A stretch of 21,450 nt of DNA from a virus (IMGVR_UViG_3300029214_000123); one strand, 5' to 3'. Positions 1 through 20,157 are shown, counted from the stretch's first letter. Translations and numbers: made by a program. Notes: generated from the sequence alone by a model not told the origin.

Positions 1-93
1 CCCCCTGTTCGGGGTCCATCCCTCTTCTCCCTGCGCGCTACTTAAGTATTTTTGATTCTATTCCGGCACCGTCCAGAACTTCAAACGCGTTGA

Positions 94-123
94 AAATAAA
101 AACAAAAACCCGCCGAAGCGGGT
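94..123 (-). terminator. Rho-independent terminator at the end of the relB-relE-hokD operon
   Basis: Perfect 6-bp stem acccgc/gcgggt (108-113 / 118-123) with cgaa loop; on the minus strand the hairpin is followed by a U-run (plus-strand A-run 94-107), just downstream of hokD. Confidence 0.6.
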
Positions 124-192
124 TAAGTGCGGGTGCGTTGAGGATGCCTGACACATCAGAGGTGGCGAGGGATTTCTCCCCCGCCAGGTCTC

Positions 193-348
193 TTACTCCT
201 CAGGTTCGTAAGCTGTGAAGACAGCGACCTCCGTCTGGCCGGTTCGGATTCGTACCTCGCAGAGGTCTTTCCTCGTTACCAGTGCCGTCACTATGACGGT
301 TAAACAGATGACGATCAGGGCGATTAACATCGCCTTTTGCTGCTTCAT
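193..348 (-). CDS. hokD: Hok-family type I toxin (HokD/RelF), 51 aa
   Basis: Hand translation of the minus strand gives MKQQKAMLIALIVICLTVIVTALVTRKDLCEVRIRTGQTEVAVFTAYEPEE, which matches my memory of HokD; stop TAA at 193-195; sits just downstream of relE as in the K-12 Qin prophage. Below the 60-aa ORF track threshold. Confidence 0.9.
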   Translation of the reverse strand: MKQQKAMLIALIVICLTVIVTALVTRKDLCEVRIRTGQTEVAVFTAYEPEE

Positions 349-419
349 AGCCTGCTTCTCCTGTCAACGCAAAGCAGAAGTGTCACCTTCGGTGCGAAAC
401 AGAGATGTCATGCTTTGGT

Positions 420-707
420 TCAGAGAATGCGTTTGACCGCCTCGCTATATACTTCCGAGCGTTCTCTTTTCCCAACAGAAATCACGAAAACGACAACTTT
501 CTCGTCTATAACCTGGTATACAAGGCGATAGCCTGAAGACCGGAGCTTAATCTTGTAACAATCAGGCATACCACGGAGCTTGTTTGCTTCAATCCGGGGT
601 GACTCAAGTACTTCAACCAGCTTCTTTTTCAACTGTTCACGTACCGTCGAGCCCAGCTTTCGCCATTCCTTTAGTGCCCGCTCGTCAAAATCCAGAAAAT
701 ACGCCAT
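420..707 (-). CDS. relE: RelE mRNA interferase toxin (type II TA)
   Basis: 95-aa ORF MAYFLDFDERALKEWRKLG... matches RelE as I recall it; its ATG overlaps the relB stop (ATGA overlap at 705-709). Confidence 0.95.
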   Translation of the reverse strand: MAYFLDFDERALKEWRKLGSTVREQLKKKLVEVLESPRIEANKLRGMPDCYKIKLRSSGYRLVYQVIDEKVVVFVISVGKRERSEVYSEAVKRIL

Positions 708-946
708 CAGAGTTCATCCAGCGTCACACGTACTGGCTTAGGATTACGAAGCCGTTCTTTCACTATCTCCACAAGTTCAGCATCTTCATCACTCAGGAGT
801 GTCTGTTTGAACGGCAAGCGTTCATTGTCAGCGATATACTCGAGCATGAGACGAAGCGCTTCAGAAGGAGTTACACCCATTTTTTCAAGCGCGGCGTAAG
901 AACGCGCTTTAAGTTCATCGTCAATACGCAGGTTAATGCTACCCAT
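707..946 (-). CDS. relB: RelB antitoxin
   Basis: 79-aa ORF MGSINLRIDDELKARSYA... matches RelB as I recall it; directly upstream of and translationally coupled to relE. Confidence 0.95.
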   Translation of the reverse strand: MGSINLRIDDELKARSYAALEKMGVTPSEALRLMLEYIADNERLPFKQTLLSDEDAELVEIVKERLRNPKPVRVTLDEL

Positions 947-957
947 GTCTTACACCT

Positions 958-983
958 CTTGTAATTACAAATGTCATTACAAG
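958..983. promoter_or_regulatory. relBE operator/promoter palindrome (relO-like)
   Basis: cttgtaattacaaatgtcattacaag: inverted hexad repeats (TTGTAAT / ATTACAA) about 12 bp upstream of the relB start codon, the expected place for RelB-RelE autorepression. Confidence 0.7.
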
Positions 984-1276
984 TATCGCACTACAACATG
1001 CTTAGGGCAAGTCACGAAGGAAGTCAGAAAGTAGTCGTAAGAACGGTGATCACTGTCCGCTTTGTGCCAGGAGCAGCCATTGCTAAGTCCATCCTGTATT
1101 GTGCAGGTCAGCTCGTTTTTAAAGAGTCCGGCCATCATCTTACTGGTACAGACACCATATACTTTGTGACGGTCAGGCTACATATGCACAACTCAACTTA
1201 TTCATCTATTTTTTGCTTTAGCATGTCAGTGTTGCTTTCTCGTCGGCGGGTGAGCGGTGACCTGACCTGTCGATAA
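971..1276 (+). CDS. ydfV: Hypothetical prophage ORF divergent from relB (ydfV-like by position and length)
   Basis: 101-aa ORF in the position and size I recall for K-12 ydfV; no clear SD and it starts inside the rel operator, so it may not be a real protein. Confidence 0.3.
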   Translation: MSLQVSHYNMLRASHEGSQKVVVRTVITVRFVPGAAIAKSILYCAGQLVFKESGHHLTGTDTIYFVTVRLHMHNSTYSSIFCFSMSVLLSRRRVSGDLTCR

Positions 1277-1428
1277 AGGAACGTAGCACGTTTTATGCAA
1301 CACCCGCATGCGGCAGAAAATTATTGCCGAACGTTTACCCCTGTCAACAAGCTTTACTTTCTGAGGCGCGCCAGCCCGCGAGGAAAACAATCTGAACATC
1401 AAACAATTAATGACACAAGAAATACGAT

Positions 1429-1455
1429 TAAAGATTTTTTTGTGCATGCCGATAG
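1429..1455 (+). promoter_or_regulatory. FliA (sigma-28) class promoter for flxA
   Basis: TAAAGATT (1429-1436), 11-bp spacer, GCCGATAG (1448-1455): near-perfect match to the sigma-28 consensus TAAAGTTT-N11-GCCGATAA, about 24 bp upstream of the flxA ATG. Confidence 0.7.
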
Positions 1456-1478
1456 TGCTTTTTTAAAAGGAGAAATCT

Positions 1479-1814
1479 ATGNNNNNNNNNNNNNNNNNNN
1501 NNNNNNNNNNAACCGTTATTTCAAACAACTCCGCCCCGGAAGGAACATCAGAAATAGCCAAAATCACAAGACAAATTCAGGTGCTGACTGAAAAGCTTGG
1601 GAAAATCTCATCGGAAGAGGGGATGACGACACAGCAGAAAAAAGAAATGGCTGCATTGGTACAGAAGCAAATTGAAAGCCTCAGGGCTCAACTGGAGCAG
1701 TTGTTAAGGCAGCAGGCAGAGAAAAAGAATAAAGACGCGACAGTTCAGCCTGATAAAAAAGAAGAGAAAAAAGACGATACAAATACCGCTGGCACCATTG
1801 ATATTTACGTCTAA
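1479..1814 (+). CDS. flxA: FlxA (FliA-regulated prophage protein); codons 2-11 masked by an N-run
   Basis: 111-aa ORF ...TVISNNSAPEGTSEIAKITRQIQVLTEKLGK... matches FlxA as I recall it; GGAG SD before the ATG at 1479; N-run 1482-1510 inside the gene. Confidence 0.8.
   Translation: MXXXXXXXXXXTVISNNSAPEGTSEIAKITRQIQVLTEKLGKISSEEGMTTQQKKEMAALVQKQIESLRAQLEQLLRQQAEKKNKDATVQPDKKEEKKDDTNTAGTIDIYV
1482..1510. other. Run of 29 N (assembly gap or masked bases) inside flxA
   Basis: Literal n characters in the sequence. Confidence 1.
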
Positions 1815-2250
1815 GTGACAGCCGTATTGTGGCCCTCATCGGGCCACTTTTCGCCATCAGCCTTTTCTTTAAAGACATATTATCTTTGTATCATTTCTGA
1901 TAGTTAACATTACAAGATATAAGTAATGGACGCACTCCCAATTAGTCTATTTAAATCGCCACGAGTTTAACTGACAACCCATGATCAATTATGAATTGCA
2001 ACTATTTCTGTAGTCACTTTTGTGGGGACAGTCCACAAAACTGCCAACTTCCGCTTCTTGCTCTTAGCGGACATTAGCATAGGCTATTTACCATAACGCC
2101 TCATTACGCGCACCGCCCAGACTGACTCAGCGCGTTTCTGGCATATCCCCGGTAAAACAAGTAACAAACCACCCGAAAATGAACACCAGAAACGCGACTT
2201 AAGAATCTACCCTATGAATGGATATGCACTCAACCGAATCGATCTTGGTT

Positions 2251-3601
2251 TCAATCTTTTTTATCGGGATCAGGCTTCTTTTTAGGTAACTTCGGGGGCT
2301 TAACTTGCTGATGACTTTGCGTTCGGCGCGTAAGCCAGGGATGGTCAGCTTTAGGTTTAACATAGTATTTTGAGCGTAAATCAATACGGGCATTATCCAC
2401 TCGTTCATGGACACTCTTTTCATCATCCAGTGGTATAGGCTCCGGGCCATCAACATACTTTTCCCAGCCCAGCGCTTTCCCGTCATACAGAACGTTAATT
2501 TCACCGTCAAAGTTCTCGCATACAGTAACAACCGAATGCCTAAGTCGATATCCCCGGCCCTCACTGCGTACCTGAAACGCACTGCTTTTGTACTGGAAAG
2601 TGAGATTTTTAGACAGAACGCGCTTCGCCTGTAGGCTGAAGATATAACCCAGTTCCTCTTCAGAATGGTGCACATCAAGATGAGCATTATCAGTAGTACG
2701 AGGCGACGTAGCGAACCGGTTGTTATAGGCTTCAATAAAGGTCGGCAACCATGCATTTGCTGTTTCAATATCACTGATATTCTGAAGCCGCATTTCTTTG
2801 ACCAGCCTGTCCTGTAGTGTCTGATTGGCGCGCTCTACCCGCCCTTTTGCCTGCGGGCTGTTGGCATGGATTGGCTCGATGCCCAGTGTCTTTATCGCAC
2901 GAGTGAACTGGGTCAGCTCACCTTCCCGCTCTGGGTTATTTACCCTGAATATACTGTGTCTATCAGAGTAGAGAGCGAGCGGTACGCCATGATCATTAAG
3001 GTAACCCCGGAGGGTTTCCATGTAAGCCCGGGTTGTTTCAGCAGGCACAAAACGCAACGCCATCAACGCACTGGTGGCATCATCAATGAAAACGATCAGT
3101 GTACATCTGGGGCCTCGATTTTCAAACCAGTCATGAGGTGAGCCATCAATCTGGATCAGTTCACCGTAAGATGGTCGTCGCATGCGGCGTTGATATATAC
3201 GGGCAATTTTACGACGGCGTTCACGCCATACCCCCCTCTTCTATCATCCACTTTCTGAGAGTTTCAACGGATAAAGATAAACCGTGTATCTCGCGCAATT
3301 TTTCGCACGCAAACGTAGGTCCAAAATCAGCGTAACGGCCTTTGAGGAGTAAAATTACTGTTGCTCTGAATTCAGTAGAAAAGGAATTATTAGGACGCTT
3401 TCCACGTCGGTGGGAAACCAGACCAGAAGGCCCTTCATTTCTATACCGTTGCNNNNNNNNNNNNNNNNNNNNNNNNNNNNNNNNNNNNNNNNNNNNNCGT
3501 GCCGCAGCTTGTTCCTGAGTAATATGTCGATTAATTGACTCCTGAATAATCTGAAGTCGGTGGAGTTCCTTATGACTCATCGTAACAGTTTCTTTGGTCA
3601 T
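2251..3601 (-). mobile_element. IS element transposase gene: N-terminal HTH plus DDE (rve-type) catalytic core, about 450 aa; disrupted by a 1-bp frameshift in a poly-G tract and by an N-run (pseudogene or sequencing error)
   Basis: ORFs 3221..3601 (HTH-like N-terminus) and 2251..3183 (D...D...E core: IDGSPHDWF, YSDRHSIF, GRVERANQTL) are offset by +1. They fuse into one reading frame if the C6 run at 3231-3236 (G6 on the coding strand) is shortened by one base. No A6G slippery heptamer. IS boundaries and inverted repeats were not resolved; family is uncertain (single-ORF IS481/ISNCY-like). Confidence 0.7.
3453..3497. other. Run of 45 N inside the transposase gene
   Basis: Literal n characters. 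Confidence 1.
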
Positions 3602-3935
3602 GAAAAATCCCCCAGAGAATTGTCTGGGGACATTTTAGAATGGTTCAAAGGGGACATTACAGCTTGGTGTTAACAATAGCCTGCTTCTCCTTGCCTTTCG
3701 GCACGTAAGAGGCTAACCTACATGTGTCTGGCATGAAATTGGCCTCAGATTAATGTTAAGCGTCTTGCAGGACGCGTAATGTTAACTGGGGCTTTTCTCT
3801 ACCTGCCGTTGGTGTTCGTGCCCGAGGCAGATAGCCTCAAGCACCCGCAGTCATTCTACTTAACTAAGATTTCCCCGCAAACCGTTTTTGTCCAGCACAG
3901 TAAATATCCAACTAAACCAATGGAGTTCGCTGTAT

Positions 3936-4154
3936 TTACCGCCAGTATTCAATGCACATGACCGCCATGAACACCCCTAAAAAAAGGGCATTTATATATC
4001 CAAATATTAATATCAAAACATCAACTTTTTCCATATACCTTGCTGTGAAGATGATGGGCATACATGATGCGAACAACCAGAACGCAACAAACAAAAACTG
4101 CAATGCGTTTTTCATTATTCCTCCTACAATCAATGTGCAATTACATTTAAACAC
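3936..4154 (-). CDS. Hypothetical small membrane protein (72 aa)
   Basis: ORF with two hydrophobic stretches (LQFLFVAFWLFASCMPIIF, LILIFGYINALFLGVFMAVM); AT-rich surroundings, no clear SD. Confidence 0.25.
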   Translation of the reverse strand: MFKCNCTLIVGGIMKNALQFLFVAFWLFASCMPIIFTARYMEKVDVLILIFGYINALFLGVFMAVMCIEYWR

Positions 4155-5269
4155 ACCTCAATTTGGCCGGACATATAAATATCTAAACCAGAAAAAATCA
4201 CTTACATAGCGTTACAAACTCTTTAGTCTAAAGGTTCATCGTAAAACATTCCCCATACTTATCAGTCCGTTCCGCGCCAGGTAGCTCATTGCCTTATCTG
4301 GCAACCTGTAATCAGGTTTCCGCTTTTTCAGTTGGCTGGTCGTTTAACCGACATAGTTAACCCATTAATCTAGTTGCCGGATGTTGGTGGATTTTCGCGT
4401 TTTAGTTGTTCATAAAAGTGCACAGCTTTAACCAATTCTTCTGATGTAACCGGGACTGGTGAGGCAGTGAATAAGGCCTGAATTTGATAGTTCGGCCTGT
4501 CGTTACAATCCTCTTTTTTCGGTACATATTTCCAGTCACCAGACCACTACTTCCCCTGAAAGTCCGTAACGCCTTTTTTTTCACGTAGCGATATCGCCAT
4601 GCCACTGTTTTTGCTTGCCCCGCCGTTTCATGCCCTTCCTGATAATTAACCTCGCTCATTCATCGCCCCACTCATCACAATATGCTTCGACCGGAGTTTT
4701 TCCCGCTTCATAGTCATCACGCTAGGATTCGACATCAGCAGCACTTCCACCGCGTAACTCACCATAGTCCATTAATAGTTCATCCCGCTCTTCAAAACTG
4801 ATGTTATATTTAGCTGAACAAAAATCAGCCACTTTGTTCTTCCTCATCGTCTTTTATTTCGTGGTATGAGTAATTGCAGTAGTTAAAGAAAATTTCTTAT
4901 GCTCCGTCATGAATTTCATCAGGTGTTGCGTCATCGTCCACTTCGAATACATCCTCAAAATCTCCACCAGCTATTCCCGTTTCAATAATAATTTTGAACT
5001 TTCGCATTTCACTACCGCCCTTTCGGGCGGCCTCCTGATGTTCTGAGGGTGCAGAAATCCATCCGGTTAAGGATTAAGTTTTATTTACAGAACTGAATTT
5101 AATTATTCAGATATACGTATCTGTAACCTTACGAATCTACTCACTGGATGCCTCTTTCATAAAAATAATCCAGTGGGTTTTATCGTTTTTTCCCTGTTCG
5201 TTGACAGATAACAGGCTTTCTATCTGTCAGTGCCAGAATCTGGCTTACCGGTATTTGCGTTTCATTCCA

Positions 5270-5626
5270 TTAAAAAATCAGAACGCCGTGCGGCCTCAAC
5301 ACCCGAAAAGCTTCTTTAAATCTCTGTCGCAAATCATCACGCCAGGCATCTTTATTCAGCCGTCCATATTTCTTTCCCATCCAGGCGTTATCACCAACAC
5401 GCTCAAGATGCGGAGGGTCTAATACAACCATCGAAAAAGATGCGTCTGCAAATGATAATGCACGAAAATCTGCGATAATGTCAGGGCTGATAATCAAGCG
5501 TCTCCCATTGCGTAATGTGTATCCTTCTTTTCTGATATCGCTAAATATCGCCCGTTCGTCAGACTTATCGAACCAGAACATGCGGCTGCCACAGCACATA
5601 TCAAGAATGGTTGCCGGTGCACTCAC
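5270..5626 (-). CDS. Prophage DNA methyltransferase-like protein (YfdM-like), possibly truncated
   Basis: 118-aa ORF with SAM-binding-like MCCGS motif and DPPH catalytic-like motif (VVLDPPHLE); short for a complete methyltransferase. Confidence 0.55.
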   Translation of the reverse strand: MSAPATILDMCCGSRMFWFDKSDERAIFSDIRKEGYTLRNGRRLIISPDIIADFRALSFADASFSMVVLDPPHLERVGDNAWMGKKYGRLNKDAWRDDLRQRFKEAFRVLRPHGVLIF

Positions 5627-6045
5627 TGCGCCACGTCCTGAAAATTACCCTGATAGAAAGCCAGTATGCGCTGCATAACTTCGCTCTTCCGGCACTCGCG
5701 ACAGATTATGTTTAGGCGACTGTCGTAGCGACGTATTTCTCCGTCAGGTGATGACCAGATAAGGTCCGGATCAACCACAGCAGGTTTCTTCACCTTTGCC
5801 CTCGAGAGTTTTTTGCGGGCGTTTTGCCAGTCCTTACGCGCCTGTTCAGAGGGGAATAACCCGTAGCCGGAGTTGTATACATCGCCACTGGCTACCAGCT
5901 CTCTGGCAAGAACGCTCATCAGATATCTAGTCGCACCTGTTTTAGCTTCCAGTTGCCGTAACGTCTCACGGCCGCTCTGGCGCACGAGTTCCACCACCTG
6001 CCATTTAATTTTTTCCCGCTCTTCTTGTGTAAAAACTTTTGCCAC
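5623..6045 (-). CDS. Hypothetical prophage protein (140 aa) in the leftward early/replication operon
   Basis: ORF co-oriented with and overlapping (ATGA-type) the downstream methyltransferase-like gene; basic C-terminus. Confidence 0.5.
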   Translation of the reverse strand: MAKVFTQEEREKIKWQVVELVRQSGRETLRQLEAKTGATRYLMSVLARELVASGDVYNSGYGLFPSEQARKDWQNARKKLSRAKVKKPAVVDPDLIWSSPDGEIRRYDSRLNIICRECRKSEVMQRILAFYQGNFQDVAQ

Positions 6046-6085
6046 AAGTCCCCCTTAAAATTACCTCATGACCTGAAATCAACAC

Positions 6086-7051
6086 TTATCCTCTGAAACC
6101 AGGCGGAATTTCTGTATCCGGTTCAGAAATATGATTAACACAACGCTGTACAGGTGAACGTCCCAGGCGGATGACCAGTTCGTCCCATTTTTCGCGGAGC
6201 TTTGACGGGCTCATGATGTTTTTTACCCAGAATGGATCTCGCTGAACCCGACCAAACATTTCGCAAATTTGTCTGTGGCTTCTGCCATCCAGCATCCGCA
6301 TTGTGCGCACGTCATTGGCCCAGGCAGTCCAGTTAGGCTCTTTTGGTCGCATGATCTCGCCATCATCACTGGCTGCCTGTTCGTAGAGACCCACGATCCG
6401 CCCCCAGATCCACTGCGCACACGCCAAATCCTCCCTGCTACCCCACTGGCGTTTTTTCGCACTAAACACAACCGCGTCGGAGTTCCGGGTTAAAAAATCC
6501 TGTTCAGTCGTCTGCGGGTCCGGTTGCGAAGCTTCCGGACGAAAAGTGTTTTTATTCTCTGTAGTAATCTCTGTTGTATTCTCTGTAAGATCATCAGGCC
6601 ATTTTGACCCGATGACATTGGGTCGTTTTGAATCAATGGAGCGTTTCATTTTGACCTCTTCCATCGTGTCATTTTGACCTGATGGAGCGGCGCATTTTGA
6701 ACCGATGGATTCGCTCAATTTGCCACCATCTAAAAGCTCGCTCCCATAGTTGATCGTGTAGAAATTGGTCATATCGCGCTTTGATTTATTGAGCTTTTCA
6801 CAACGCAAAAGCCCCAGCGTTTTCAGACTTGCAAACGCGCGCTTTAACGTTGACTCTGACCAGAATGGGAACTGTTCCAGCCATTGTTCCGTTGTGTTAT
6901 AAATCCAGCGAACACCATCACATTCCATGCCGGAGTTGGTATCTCTCAACCAGTAGTGCAGTTGTTGCAAAACAATGGCTTCGTTTAAGCCAATTTTCAT
7001 TGCCAGCTGCGTGTTTATAACCAGTGGGCGTTCAGCAAAAAGAAGGCTCAT
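6086..7051 (-). CDS. Putative phage replication initiation / replisome-organizer protein (lambda O-like position)
   Basis: Long ORF (track 6086..7105); internal ATG at 7051-7049 (MSLLFAERPL...) is the more likely start. Sits downstream of the cro-like dicC in the leftward operon where lambdoid replication genes are found. Functional call is by position and general resemblance only. Confidence 0.5.
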   Translation of the reverse strand: MSLLFAERPLVINTQLAMKIGLNEAIVLQQLHYWLRDTNSGMECDGVRWIYNTTEQWLEQFPFWSESTLKRAFASLKTLGLLRCEKLNKSKRDMTNFYTINYGSELLDGGKLSESIGSKCAAPSGQNDTMEEVKMKRSIDSKRPNVIGSKWPDDLTENTTEITTENKNTFRPEASQPDPQTTEQDFLTRNSDAVVFSAKKRQWGSREDLACAQWIWGRIVGLYEQAASDDGEIMRPKEPNWTAWANDVRTMRMLDGRSHRQICEMFGRVQRDPFWVKNIMSPSKLREKWDELVIRLGRSPVQRCVNHISEPDTEIPPGFRG

Positions 7052-7553
7052 AATTCCATCCAGCTTTTTGTTGGTATTGCTGTCGATACGCAAGCTTGAA
7101 AGCAATTGCTTTTTCTATAAGTTCGTCAGTTTCACGATCCACTACGGCAGGATCAGCAAAAAGCAGTCCGGACTCCACCACATCGCCATATTCTTTGTTT
7201 AACCCGGCGATCATGCACGTGATGCTTTTTCCGTCAGTAATTTCACGATACAACCTGAAATCACTAATCCGGATAGCCTCCATAATCGCAGGCACTAGCG
7301 CCGTGAACTTTTCACGCTTATCCCTGGTGTCGATAGCCTTCCAGCGTTCGAATATCTTCACTCGATTAACACCAAGCGCTCGCTGATCAACCGCGCCACC
7401 TTCATCTGTGACACGCTGAACATCGATGTTCGGGCGCTCTTTCAAAGCCCAGAATGCTTCAGTGATTAATATCGTCGCCTGCTCCTGTGTCATTCCTGGT
7501 CGACATATCCAGGCATCCAGAGCCTCACGAGCCTGTTCAGGAGTGATTTTCAT
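7032..7553 (-). CDS. Hypothetical prophage protein (173 aa) immediately downstream of dicC
   Basis: ORF overlaps the dicC 3' end by 17 nt and the next gene by about 20 nt (compact operon organisation); function unknown. Confidence 0.45.
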   Translation of the reverse strand: MKITPEQAREALDAWICRPGMTQEQATILITEAFWALKERPNIDVQRVTDEGGAVDQRALGVNRVKIFERWKAIDTRDKREKFTALVPAIMEAIRISDFRLYREITDGKSITCMIAGLNKEYGDVVESGLLFADPAVVDRETDELIEKAIAFKLAYRQQYQQKAGWNYEPSFC

Positions 7554-9294: not shown

Positions 9295-9352
9295 TTTCTG
9301 GTGACGTTTGGCGGTATCAGTTTTACTCCGTGACTGCTCTGCCGCCCTTTTT
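9295..9352 (+). ncRNA. dicF: DicF small RNA (antisense inhibitor of ftsZ translation) with intrinsic terminator
   Basis: tttctggtgacgtttggcggtatcagttttactccgtgactgctctgccgccc followed by ttttt matches DicF as I recall it; GC hairpin plus T-run at the 3' end. Confidence 0.85.
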
Positions 9353-20055: not shown

Positions 20056-20157
20056 TCATCTTNNNNNNNNNNGACCAAGCTCTCTGAGGAGGACTTCAGT
20101 CCGGTAGCCACGGTAACGGAGAGTCATGCGACCCTCAGGTGTGCGCGGGTCAATCAT
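20056..20157 (-). CDS. Possible small basic protein (~33 aa) translationally coupled to the upstream 237-aa gene; spans an N-run
   Basis: ATG at 20157-20155 is preceded by GGAGGG (8 nt upstream) lying in the last codons of the upstream gene; translation MIDPRTPEGRMTLRYRGYRTEVLLRELG... The length depends on the true size of the 10-N gap. Confidence 0.2.
   Translation of the reverse strand: MIDPRTPEGRMTLRYRGYRTEVLLRELGXXXXR
20063..20072. other. Run of 10 N inside the foreign segment
   Basis: Literal n characters. Confidence 1.

What the first reader, a model, noticed from the sequence alone, without database searches (positions are those of the whole stretch)
2251..3601. IS transposase split by a +1 shift in a G6 homopolymer
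The HTH part (3221..3601) and the DDE part (2251..3183) are in frames offset by +1. They become one ~450-aa transposase if the G6 run (plus-strand C6 at 3231-3236) loses one base. There is no IS3-style A6G slippery site, so this looks like a single-ORF IS481/ISNCY-like transposase with either a real inactivating indel or a homopolymer sequencing error. A 45-N run also sits in the gene. The IS lies between flxA and the replication module, where K-12, as far as I recall, has only short pseudogene remnants.
Basis: partly seen in the sequence, partly recalled or inferred. Interest (0 to 1): 0.5.

Follow-up and report, generated by a model that had tools for sequence, protein, structure and literature searches.

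The report
Frameshifted ISEsa1-type transposase in Qin prophage
This is a dead copy of a known insertion sequence (ISEsa1 type, IS1202 family) in the E. coli Qin prophage, its single transposase gene broken by one extra G; the break is ordinary, but this kind of element carries a plasmid-type Xer (cer-like) recombination site and repeatedly sits on the start site of hok toxin genes.

Summary
ORFs 3221-3601(-) and 2251-3183(-) are the HTH and DDE halves of one transposase, offset by one base at a C6/G6 run (3231-3236). Removing one G gives a 446-aa protein that matches NCBIfam NF033594 (ISNCY/IS1202-type) in one stretch at 462 bits (cutoff 250). IS481 and IS3 models fall below cutoff. Natural alleles show the path: GGGGTTA (intact) to GGGGGTA (intact, Leu>Val) to GGGGGGTA (window, frameshift). 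The G6 allele is identical in 50 complete E. coli records (IAI1 and others) and 10 metagenome/viral contigs, so it is most likely an inherited mutation, not an assembly error or programmed frameshift. The 45-N run is a mask over 36 in-frame bases. K-12 keeps only the last 185 nt (ydfW) after a 4.8-kb deletion. RefSeq already annotates all this, so the finding is ordinary. Beyond the finding: the enterobacterial clade of this element carries a complete cer-like XerCD site (core 2086-2114) instead of a recognisable right inverted repeat. Its left end abuts the hok ribosome-binding site/start codon in many different hok/sok loci, without target duplications. I did not find this described in the two IS1202-family papers I read.

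The parts
2050..3675 (-). ISEsa1-type (IS1202-family) element, conservative extent: left inverted repeat, split transposase gene, cer-like site, terminal hairpin
   Evidence: The right boundary 3675 is set two ways: six sequence contexts diverge there and hokW/sok homology starts at 3676. The left boundary is 2050-2060: contexts diverge after ..GCTAAGAGC or after the hairpin. The unit from the left repeat to AAGAGC is 1606 bp when intact and 1607 bp with G6.
3221..3601 (-). N-terminal HTH fragment of the transposase (126 aa as read with the N mask; 123 aa in IAI1), ending at a premature TGA three codons after the G-run
   Evidence: RefSeq annotates it as 'helix-turn-helix domain-containing protein' WP_021511900.1.
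3231..3236 (-). G6 run (C6 on + strand) carrying the +1 insertion; natural alleles are G4-TTA, G5-TA and G6-TA
3453..3497 (.). 45-N mask; the closest genome has 36 nt here, in frame, encoding part of the HTH (..RIGISIRQVKRLV..)
2251..3183 (-). DDE catalytic and C-terminal part of the transposase in the +1 frame. It contains QIDGS, FIDDATS, YSDRHS and VERANQTLQ (Q at E+7). The last 49 codons (2251-2400) are what RefSeq calls ydfW.
   Evidence: family signature taken from preprint 10.1101/2022.12.17.520857.
3650..3675 (-). Left inverted repeat (IRL): TGTTAACACCAAGCTGTAATGTCCCC read from the outside, with a 5'-TGT tip
   Evidence: It is nearly identical to the IRL of a canonical Hahella relative, TGTTAGCCCAAAGCTGTAATGTCCCC.
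3626..3644 (-). Subterminal repeat of the inner part of IRL (79% identical, 24-nt spacing); presumed second transposase-binding site
   Evidence: family D3. The same two-site layout is seen in the Hahella relative and described for the family.
2086..2114 (-). Xer core site GGTGCGCGTAA-TGAGGCG-TTATGGTAAAT (XerC arm 2104-2114, 7-nt spacer, XerD arm 2086-2096)
   Evidence: The XerD arm is identical to ColE1 cer, and the XerC arm is 1 mismatch from E. coli dif (table in PMC2410131).
2115..2245 (-). cer-type accessory region (about 130 nt) between the transposase stop codon and the XerC arm, with an ARG-box-like sequence at 2214-2229
   Evidence: About 75% identity to the region next to exc2 of ColRNAI plasmids. 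It diverges in step with the transposase gene across lineages.
2050..2085 (-). Tail after the XerD arm: AGCCTATGCTAATGTCCGCTAAGAGC (2060-2085), plus a hairpin whose arms are 2050-2055 and 2066-2071; the arm at 2066-2071 lies inside that conserved tail. It contains a third TAATGTCC(G)C motif, in direct orientation relative to IRL.
   Evidence: The DNA fold of the intact version gives a 7-8-bp stem with z = -3.1.
3675..3846 (-). sok antisense RNA / hok mRNA leader with no hok coding sequence; the element's left end sits at the position of the hok start codon
   Evidence: Rfam RF01794, 99.8 bits, model 1-157/157. Alignment to 933W hokW/mokW/sokW. No Hok CDS within 2.5 kb except the distant hokD.

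Best explanation
The window holds a resident, inactivated copy of an ISEsa1-type insertion sequence (IS1202 family, ISfinder category ISNCY) in the Qin cryptic prophage of an IAI1-like E. coli. The transposase is normally a single 446-aa protein: an N-terminal HTH DNA-binding part followed by a DDE catalytic core. In this lineage a T>G substitution first lengthened a G4 run to G5 (Leu121Val, still intact). Replication slippage then added a G, giving G6. That shifts the frame and stops translation three codons later. The result is an HTH-only peptide and a DDE ORF with no obvious ribosome-binding site, so the copy cannot make transposase (inferred) unless the run slips back. It is one of several decay states of the same Qin-borne copy: G6 frameshift, an in-frame 27-nt deletion, and the K-12 4.8-kb deletion that leaves ydfW. 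Shown here: the sequence states, their distribution and the family assignment. Inferred: the order of mutations and the loss of activity.
For: Family and single ORF: (NF033594 at 462.5 bits in one stretch after repair; IS481 and IS3 below cutoff). RefSeq names it 'IS1202-like element ISEsa1 family transposase'. Allele series G4/G5/G6: the G4 and G5 alleles carry intact 446-aa ORFs, and the window differs from the natural G5 allele only by I2T and S81L. Real mutation: the exact 81-mer is in 50 of 789 E. coli records, and the other 739 are one base shorter. The 1607-bp form is in 10 metagenome/viral contigs, and window 1511-3452 is 100% identical to IAI1. Other decay states: the 27-nt deletion between TCCTGARTAAT repeats is in 525 of 798 records; the K-12 deletion spans window 2436-7273. 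Family signatures read directly from the sequence: DD between D1 and D2, and Q at E+7 (sequence).
Against: Reads for this assembly could not be examined, so an error here that happens to mimic a real allele is not strictly excluded. A GGG_GGU run could in principle allow rare +1 ribosomal slippage that regenerates the G5-type protein, so 'dead' may mean 'very low'. No transposition assay exists for this element. Even intact copies lack a recognisable right inverted repeat and target duplication, so it is unclear how mobile the intact form is.
Confidence: 0.9

Rival explanations
1. Homopolymer sequencing or assembly error: the real genome has G5 and an intact gene.
For: Homopolymer miscounts are common, and an intact G5 allele exists in nature.
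Against: The identical G6 81-mer is in 50 complete genomes from many laboratories (IAI1 and NCTC11129 among the 100% matches) and in 10 metagenome/viral contigs. The G6 haplotype also carries two private amino-acid changes (I2T, S81L), so it is a distinct lineage allele.
Confidence: 0.04
2. Programmed +1 ribosomal frameshift (or transcriptional slippage) that makes an HTH regulator and a fused transposase, as IS3/IS1 elements do with -1 shifts.
For: A truncated HTH protein resembles the OrfA/InsA-type regulators of other IS. tRNA-Gly could re-pair +1 on GGG_GGU (inference from the sequence).
Against: About 94% of E. coli copies (739 of 789 records) and all plasmid copies examined are one base shorter at this site, and every G4/G5 copy translated here reads through it. 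There is no slippery heptamer, no stimulatory stop or rare codon directly after the run, and no A6G at the junction. The family is described as single-ORF. G6 is a derived minority allele.
Confidence: 0.03
3. Reversible on/off switch: the G-run acts as a contingency tract that toggles transposase expression.
For: Three run lengths (G4, G5, G6) coexist in the population.
Against: G4 to G5 is a substitution, not a slip. Only one out-of-frame length is seen. Six G is short for phase variation. The Qin copy shows other irreversible decay (27-nt deletion, 4.8-kb deletion).
Confidence: 0.03
4. Two-ORF IS3-family or IS481-family element.
For: The HTH_32/rve_3 domain mix is shared with IS481 and IS3. 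Weak hits to both models.
Against: IS481 scores 130.8 against a cutoff of 224, and IS3 30.8 against 160, while ISNCY_2 scores 462.5 against 250. Ends and subterminal repeats match an IS1202-family relative.
Confidence: 0.01

Closest known systems
ISEsa1 (ISfinder; IS1202 group of ISNCY, proposed IS1202 family; Harmer, Pong & Hall 2023, PMC10132070)
   Same: RefSeq names the protein 'IS1202-like element ISEsa1 family transposase'. Size is comparable: 1606-1617 bp against 1609 bp, and 446 aa against 439 aa. No target-site duplication is detectable, as reported for ISEsa1.
   Different: ISfinder could not be queried, so identity to ISEsa1 itself is untested. The window copy is frameshifted. The cer-like site and the hok association seen here do not appear in the passages I retrieved from the paper, which states that no target was found for this subgroup.
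Canonical relatives with long target duplications (ISTde1 subgroup of Siguier et al., 15-17 bp; here a 1449-bp element in Hahella sp. SMD15-11, 10 copies)
   Same: 62% identical transposase; almost the same left inverted repeat; two subterminal ..AATGTCCCC sites per end; TGT/ACA tips.
   Different: The Hahella element has a clear right inverted repeat, 15-16-bp duplications and no Xer site. The enterobacterial clade has a cer-like site and hairpin where the right repeat should be, and no duplications.
ISAba32/ISAjo2 subgroup of the IS1202 family (xrs/dif 'hunters')
   Same: Same family, and also physically associated with XerCD sites.
   Different: Those insert with the left end 5-6 bp from the XerC arm and make 5-bp duplications; the Xer site is a target outside the element. 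Here the Xer site lies downstream of the transposase gene, 136-146 nt from the stop codon, with full cer-type accessory sequence. It diverges together with the transposase gene, so it is carried by the element.
E. coli K-12 ydfW (b1567), Qin prophage
   Same: ydfW is the last 49 codons of this transposase ORF, and K-12 also keeps the cer-like site and hairpin.
   Different: K-12 lost window 2436-7273: most of the transposase gene, the left repeat, the sok leader and replication genes.
ColE1 cer and related plasmid multimer-resolution sites
   Same: The XerD arm is identical. The 80%-identity lineage of the element has both arms identical to ColE1 cer with an 8-nt spacer. About 130 nt of accessory sequence is about 75% identical to ColRNAI plasmids.
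   Different: It sits inside a transposable-element unit in a prophage or large plasmid, not in a small multicopy plasmid. Function is untested.
IS3/IS1-type two-ORF transposases with programmed -1 frameshifting
   Same: Superficially the same picture: an HTH ORF followed by an out-of-frame DDE ORF.
   Different: +1 offset, no slippery motif, and intact single-ORF alleles predominate.

Membership tests
IS1202 family (ISNCY, IS1202 group) | Transposase matches the curated family model above its cutoff | tested here: met
   NF033594 at 462.5 bits against a cutoff of 250, as one stretch, after removing one G. The two halves hit complementary model parts.
IS1202 family (ISNCY, IS1202 group) | DDE triad with two extra conserved D between D1 and D2, and Q (not K/R) seven residues after E (Siguier et al. 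preprint) | tested here: met
   Read from the sequence: QIDGS ... FIDDATS ... YSDRHS ... GRVERANQTLQ, with Q at E+7.
IS1202 family (ISNCY, IS1202 group) | Terminal inverted repeats of 22-29 bp with 5'-TGT / ACA-3' tips | tested here: inconclusive
   The left repeat is present with a TGT tip (3650-3675). No significant inverted copy is found in 2000-2449. The other end is a cer-like site plus hairpin.
IS1202 family (ISNCY, IS1202 group) | Second, subterminal copy of the inner part of the repeat | tested here: met
   3626-3644 against 3650-3668, 79% identical; same layout in the Hahella relative. Seen at the left end only.
IS1202 family, long-duplication (ISTde1-like) subgroup | 15-17-bp target-site duplication | tested here: not met
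   No duplication in the window or in any of 44 distinct flank pairs. The Hahella relative does make 15-16-bp duplications. ISEsa1 is reported to lack them.
IS481 family | Transposase matches the IS481 model above its cutoff | tested here: not met
   NF033577 at 130.8 bits against a cutoff of 224.
IS3 family | Two ORFs joined by a -1 frameshift at an A6G-type motif; IS3 transposase model | tested here: not met
   The offset is +1, there is no slippery motif at the junction, and NF033516 scores 30.8 against 160.
cer-type XerCD site | 11-nt XerC and XerD arms around a 6-8-nt spacer | tested here: met
   GGTGCGCGTAA-TGAGGCG-TTATGGTAAAT at 2086-2114; arms compared with the ColE1 cer / dif table.
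cer-type XerCD site | About 150-200 bp of accessory sequence on the XerC side (ArgR/PepA-dependent; requirement stated from my own knowledge) | tested here: met
   Window 2115-2245 aligns to the cer region of ColRNAI plasmids at about 75%. Protein binding was not tested.
cer-type XerCD site | Supports Xer-mediated recombination | not testable with these tools
   Indirect only: in L012/L034 a 1.14-kb segment sits between two Xer cores exactly at this site.
hok/sok type I toxin-antitoxin locus | sok RNA / hok leader plus hok CDS | tested here: not met
   The sok model hits full length, but no hok CDS adjoins the element. It is a truncated locus.

The most novel reading that the evidence does not exclude
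The enterobacterial ISEsa1 clade is a structural variant of IS1202-family elements. (i) It has incorporated a complete cer-type XerCD/ArgR/PepA site where the right inverted repeat should be. (ii) It forms new junctions only through its left end, with strong preference for a point 15-17 nt past the GGAG of hok translation-initiation regions, which removes the toxin gene. A testable mechanism follows. The TnsB-like transposase has no TnsA partner and may transpose replicatively, with the built-in cer-like site letting host XerCD resolve cointegrates, as res sites do in Tn3-family transposons. This would address the 'no duplication, no target' puzzle noted for ISEsa1 in 2023.
Probability: 0.35. 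Interest if true: 0.6.

Novelty: already known. Interest (0 to 1): 0.25.

Why it matters
The frameshift itself matters little. It documents one more decay state of a prophage-borne IS, and it shows that K-12 'YdfW' and the IAI1 'helix-turn-helix protein' are fragments of one transposase, which is useful for annotation clean-up. The side observations may matter more to people who study mobile elements. They give ISEsa1-type elements a candidate target (the hok start region) and a candidate host-dependent resolution site (cer-like). They also link IS1202-family biology to Xer recombination in a second, different way from the known dif-hunting subgroup. hok/sok loci stabilise plasmids and prophages, so an element that repeatedly deletes the toxin gene could influence plasmid and prophage maintenance.

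Tried and rejected
1. I looked for a right inverted repeat. Local alignment of the last 60 nt (both orientations) against 2000-2449 gave scores within the shuffle range. By-eye candidates beyond the hairpin are not conserved between contexts.

2. I looked for target duplications of 3-30 nt in every flank pair and found none. One 9-mer in L037 looks like chance.

3. I looked for an empty site by joining the two flanks. No E. coli genome covers the joint. The one partial hit (strain H10) turned out to carry a relic of the hairpin and a degenerate cer, not an empty site.

4. I tested whether downstream flanks are the missing hok halves. There is no similarity by blastn or tblastn.

5. I tested whether the cer-like site is merely a flank. 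This is rejected because its position and divergence track the transposase gene across lineages that are 71-98% identical in DNA.

6. A PDB sequence search with the repaired protein gave no hits.

7. The supplement of PMC10132070 and a ydfW/intK literature search gave nothing useful.

8. A quick hairpin-covariation script mis-registered most variants and is not used as evidence.

9. No structure prediction or billion-protein search was run, because the family assignment was already unambiguous.

Full report
**Where the window comes from.** Window 1800-3900 is 100% identical to E. coli IAI1 and many other strains. It lies in the Qin cryptic prophage, in the order rem-hokD-relE-relB-ydfV-flxA, then the element, then pseudogenes, a DUF977 gene and a replication gene. 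Window 1511-3452 has no mismatch to IAI1, while neighbouring segments differ slightly, so the source is an IAI1-like strain.

**Checking the observation.** Pfam finds HTH_32 in the upstream ORF and rve_3 in the downstream one. NCBIfam NF033594 ('ISNCY family transposase') matches the HTH ORF over model positions 1-104 and the DDE ORF over 122-365 of 368. I filled the N-run from IAI1 and deleted one G. The resulting 446-aa protein matches that model as one stretch at 462.5 bits against a cutoff of 250. IS481 (130.8 against 224) and IS3 (30.8 against 160) both fail. The N-run is a mask: IAI1 has 36 in-frame bases there, and a second N-run of 29 stands for 26 bases.

**What the intact gene looks like.**
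- Plasmid copies (for example pBK30661) and many E. coli Qin copies are one base shorter at this site.
- Three natural alleles exist:
  - GGGGTTATGG (EEGLW): an intact 446-aa ORF on the plasmids. In the one E. coli G4 copy translated (88-3493) the ORF is 437 aa, because that copy also carries the 27-nt deletion described below.
  - GGGGGTATGG (EEGVW): intact 446 aa, in E. coli GPEC1446 and on a Salmonella IncI plasmid that carries the flxA-to-element segment.
  - GGGGGGTATGG: the window and IAI1, frameshifted, with a TGA three codons later.
- The simplest path is a T>G substitution that lengthened the run, followed by a +G slip. This order is inferred.
- The repaired window protein differs from the natural G5 allele only by I2T and S81L.

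**Real mutation or error?** An 81-nt probe across the run is matched exactly in 50 of 789 E. coli records; the other 739 have the 80-nt versions. The 1607-bp (+1) form also occurs in 10 metagenome/viral contigs. That spread, together with the two private substitutions, makes an assembly artefact unlikely, although I could not look at reads.

**Programmed frameshifting is unlikely.** Single-ORF alleles predominate. There is no slippery heptamer or A6G at the junction, and the family is described as single-ORF.

**Other decay states of the same copy.**
- An in-frame 27-nt deletion between TCCTGARTAAT repeats is present in 525 of 798 records.
- In K-12, window 1511-2435 is joined directly to 7274. 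This leaves ydfW (the last 49 codons), the cer-like site and the hairpin.
- RefSeq already annotates the IAI1 state as an HTH protein, a transposase pseudogene and ydfW. The finding is correct but already known and ordinary.

**Anatomy of the element.**
- *Left end.* The end upstream of the gene is sharp at 3675. Six contexts diverge there, and hokW/sok homology starts at 3676.
- *Left inverted repeat.* It reads TGTTAACACCAAGCTGTAATGTCCCC, with a subterminal repeat of its inner part.
- *A canonical relative.* An element in Hahella sp. (62% aa identity, 10 copies) is 1449 bp. It has almost the same left repeat, a clear right repeat, two sites per end and 15-16-bp target duplications.
- *The other end of the window element.* There is no significant inverted copy of the left repeat. 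Directly after the stop codon comes about 130 nt that is about 75% identical to the cer region of ColRNAI plasmids (next to exc2). This is followed by the core GGTGCGCGTAA-TGAGGCG-TTATGGTAAAT (2086-2114). The XerD arm equals that of ColE1 cer.
- *Tail and hairpin.* After the core comes a conserved 26-nt tail containing TAATGTCCGC, then a hairpin.

**The Xer site is part of the unit.** A Xer core lies 140-146 nt past the stop codon in most enterobacterial relatives with 79-100% aa identity; in a few it is displaced by 0.7-1.7 kb or was not found. The roughly 80%-identity lineage has both arms identical to ColE1 cer. The cer region diverges in step with the transposase gene. Non-enterobacterial relatives lack a Xer core. 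In two loci a 1.14-kb segment sits between two Xer cores exactly at this site, as expected from Xer-mediated module integration; that reading is inferred.

**Flanks.**
- Rfam sok (RF01794) ends exactly at the left repeat in the window and in 11 related loci, representing about 9 different leaders.
- Aligned to phage 933W, window 3676 falls on the hokW start codon.
- Of 56 distinct 40-nt left-end flanks collected from genomes, metagenomes and viral contigs, 39 are hok leader plus ribosome-binding site. They end 15-17 nt after GGAG, and at least 12 are clearly different leaders. One (L034) has the hok CDS side instead.
- The differences reach right up to the junction while the elements themselves are 92-100% identical in DNA. 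Independent joining events are therefore more likely than co-divergence (inference).
- No hok CDS is ever found at the other end, and there is no target duplication.
- The same downstream flank is combined with many different left-end flanks: 44 flank pairs come from about 10 downstream contexts. New junctions therefore seem to arise only at the left end. Flank reassortment between copies also occurs.

**Comparison with the literature.** Harmer et al. 2023 list ISEsa1 (1609 bp, repeats 15/22, 439 aa) as having no duplication and no identifiable target. Siguier et al. report that only the 5-bp-duplication subgroup targets Xer sites, with the left end 5-6 bp from the XerC arm. The arrangement here differs: the Xer site is inside the unit, on the other side of the gene, and has full accessory sequence. 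I found no mention of it or of the hok association in the passages I retrieved from those papers, but I cannot exclude prior description elsewhere (for example TnPedia or ISfinder notes).

**Mechanism.** For the given finding: loss of transposase by a +1 homopolymer slip, confidence about 0.9. For the element class, a hypothesis only: a TnsB-like transposase without a TnsA partner may transpose replicatively, or cause adjacent deletions from its left end into hok start regions, and the built-in cer-like site would let host XerCD/ArgR/PepA resolve cointegrates. The missing right repeat and the one-sided junctions remain unexplained.

**Verdict.** Observation confirmed. Interpretation supported: IS1202/ISNCY family, single ORF, real indel. 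Novelty of the finding itself: already known. Interest is low, raised slightly by the cer-like site and the hok association.

Noticed in passing
window 2086-2245: A complete cer-type Xer site (core plus about 130 nt of accessory sequence, about 75% identical to ColRNAI plasmid cer regions) lies between the transposase stop codon and the element's end. It is conserved at the same offset in most enterobacterial relatives and absent from non-enterobacterial ones.
   Followed up: yes
window 3675-3846 and loci L005, L008, L011, L012, L020, L024, L027, L036, L038, L053: The element's left end abuts a sok / hok-leader at the hok start codon. 39 of 56 distinct left-end flanks are hok start regions, the hok CDS is missing, and there is no target duplication.
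   Followed up: yes
window 2050-2085: A conserved tail after the XerD arm contains a third TAATGTCC(G)C motif in direct, not inverted, orientation relative to the left repeat, together with a 7-bp hairpin. Contexts diverge inside the loop or right after the stem. Its role is unknown.
   Followed up: partly
window 1482-1510, 3453-3497, 20063-20072: The N-runs are masks whose lengths do not equal the hidden sequence (29 N for 26 nt; 45 N for 36 nt in IAI1), so coordinates and ORF lengths across them are slightly inflated.
   Followed up: yes
window 2436-7273 compared with K-12 (L015): K-12 MG1655 lacks this 4.8-kb stretch. Its 'protein YdfW' is the C-terminal 49 aa of the transposase, and K-12 still carries the cer-like site and hairpin downstream of flxA.
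   Followed up: yes
L003 3713-3793 (window about 3500-3545): A 27-nt in-frame deletion between TCCTGARTAAT direct repeats removes SINRHITQE from the HTH region. It is the commonest state of the Qin copy, in 525 of 798 E. coli records.
   Followed up: partly
L012 and L034 (C. freundii and C. portucalensis plasmid contigs): A 1.14-kb segment (small hypothetical ORFs and a DUF2158 gene) sits between two Xer cores at the element's cer-like site. The second XerC arm is GGTTCCCGTTA. It looks like a dif-module-type insertion.
   Followed up: partly
L011, L021, L022, L024-L027 (IncHI2-type plasmids and others): An IS110-family element (annotated as ISEsa2 family in L011) appears to interrupt the hairpin loop at the same point (GAGCGAGA|TATAGTC) in several contexts. 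Another sequence starting TGTGAGTTCAAC abuts ..AAGAGC in others. These may be site-specific insertions into the element's end.
   Followed up: no
L004, L007, L009 (Klebsiella and E. coli plasmids): ISKpn38 (IS3 family) is inserted inside the left repeat region (after ..GGTTCAAAGG or ..AAAGGGG), in two orientations, disrupting otherwise intact plasmid copies.
   Followed up: no
L016 (E. coli H10, P2-like prophage): The flxA-downstream segment, including the hairpin and a degenerate cer-like relic but no transposase gene, is found next to tail genes of another prophage.
   Followed up: partly
window 9296-9347: DicF sRNA (Rfam RF00039, 76.7 bits), as expected for Qin. relBE-hokD lies at 193-946.
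   Followed up: no
L039-L049, L065 (Hahella sp. SMD15-11): At least 10 near-identical copies of a 1449-bp relative with 15-16-bp target duplications; one tandem pair is separated by 11 bp (L040). This is a good reference for the canonical architecture of this subgroup.
   Followed up: partly
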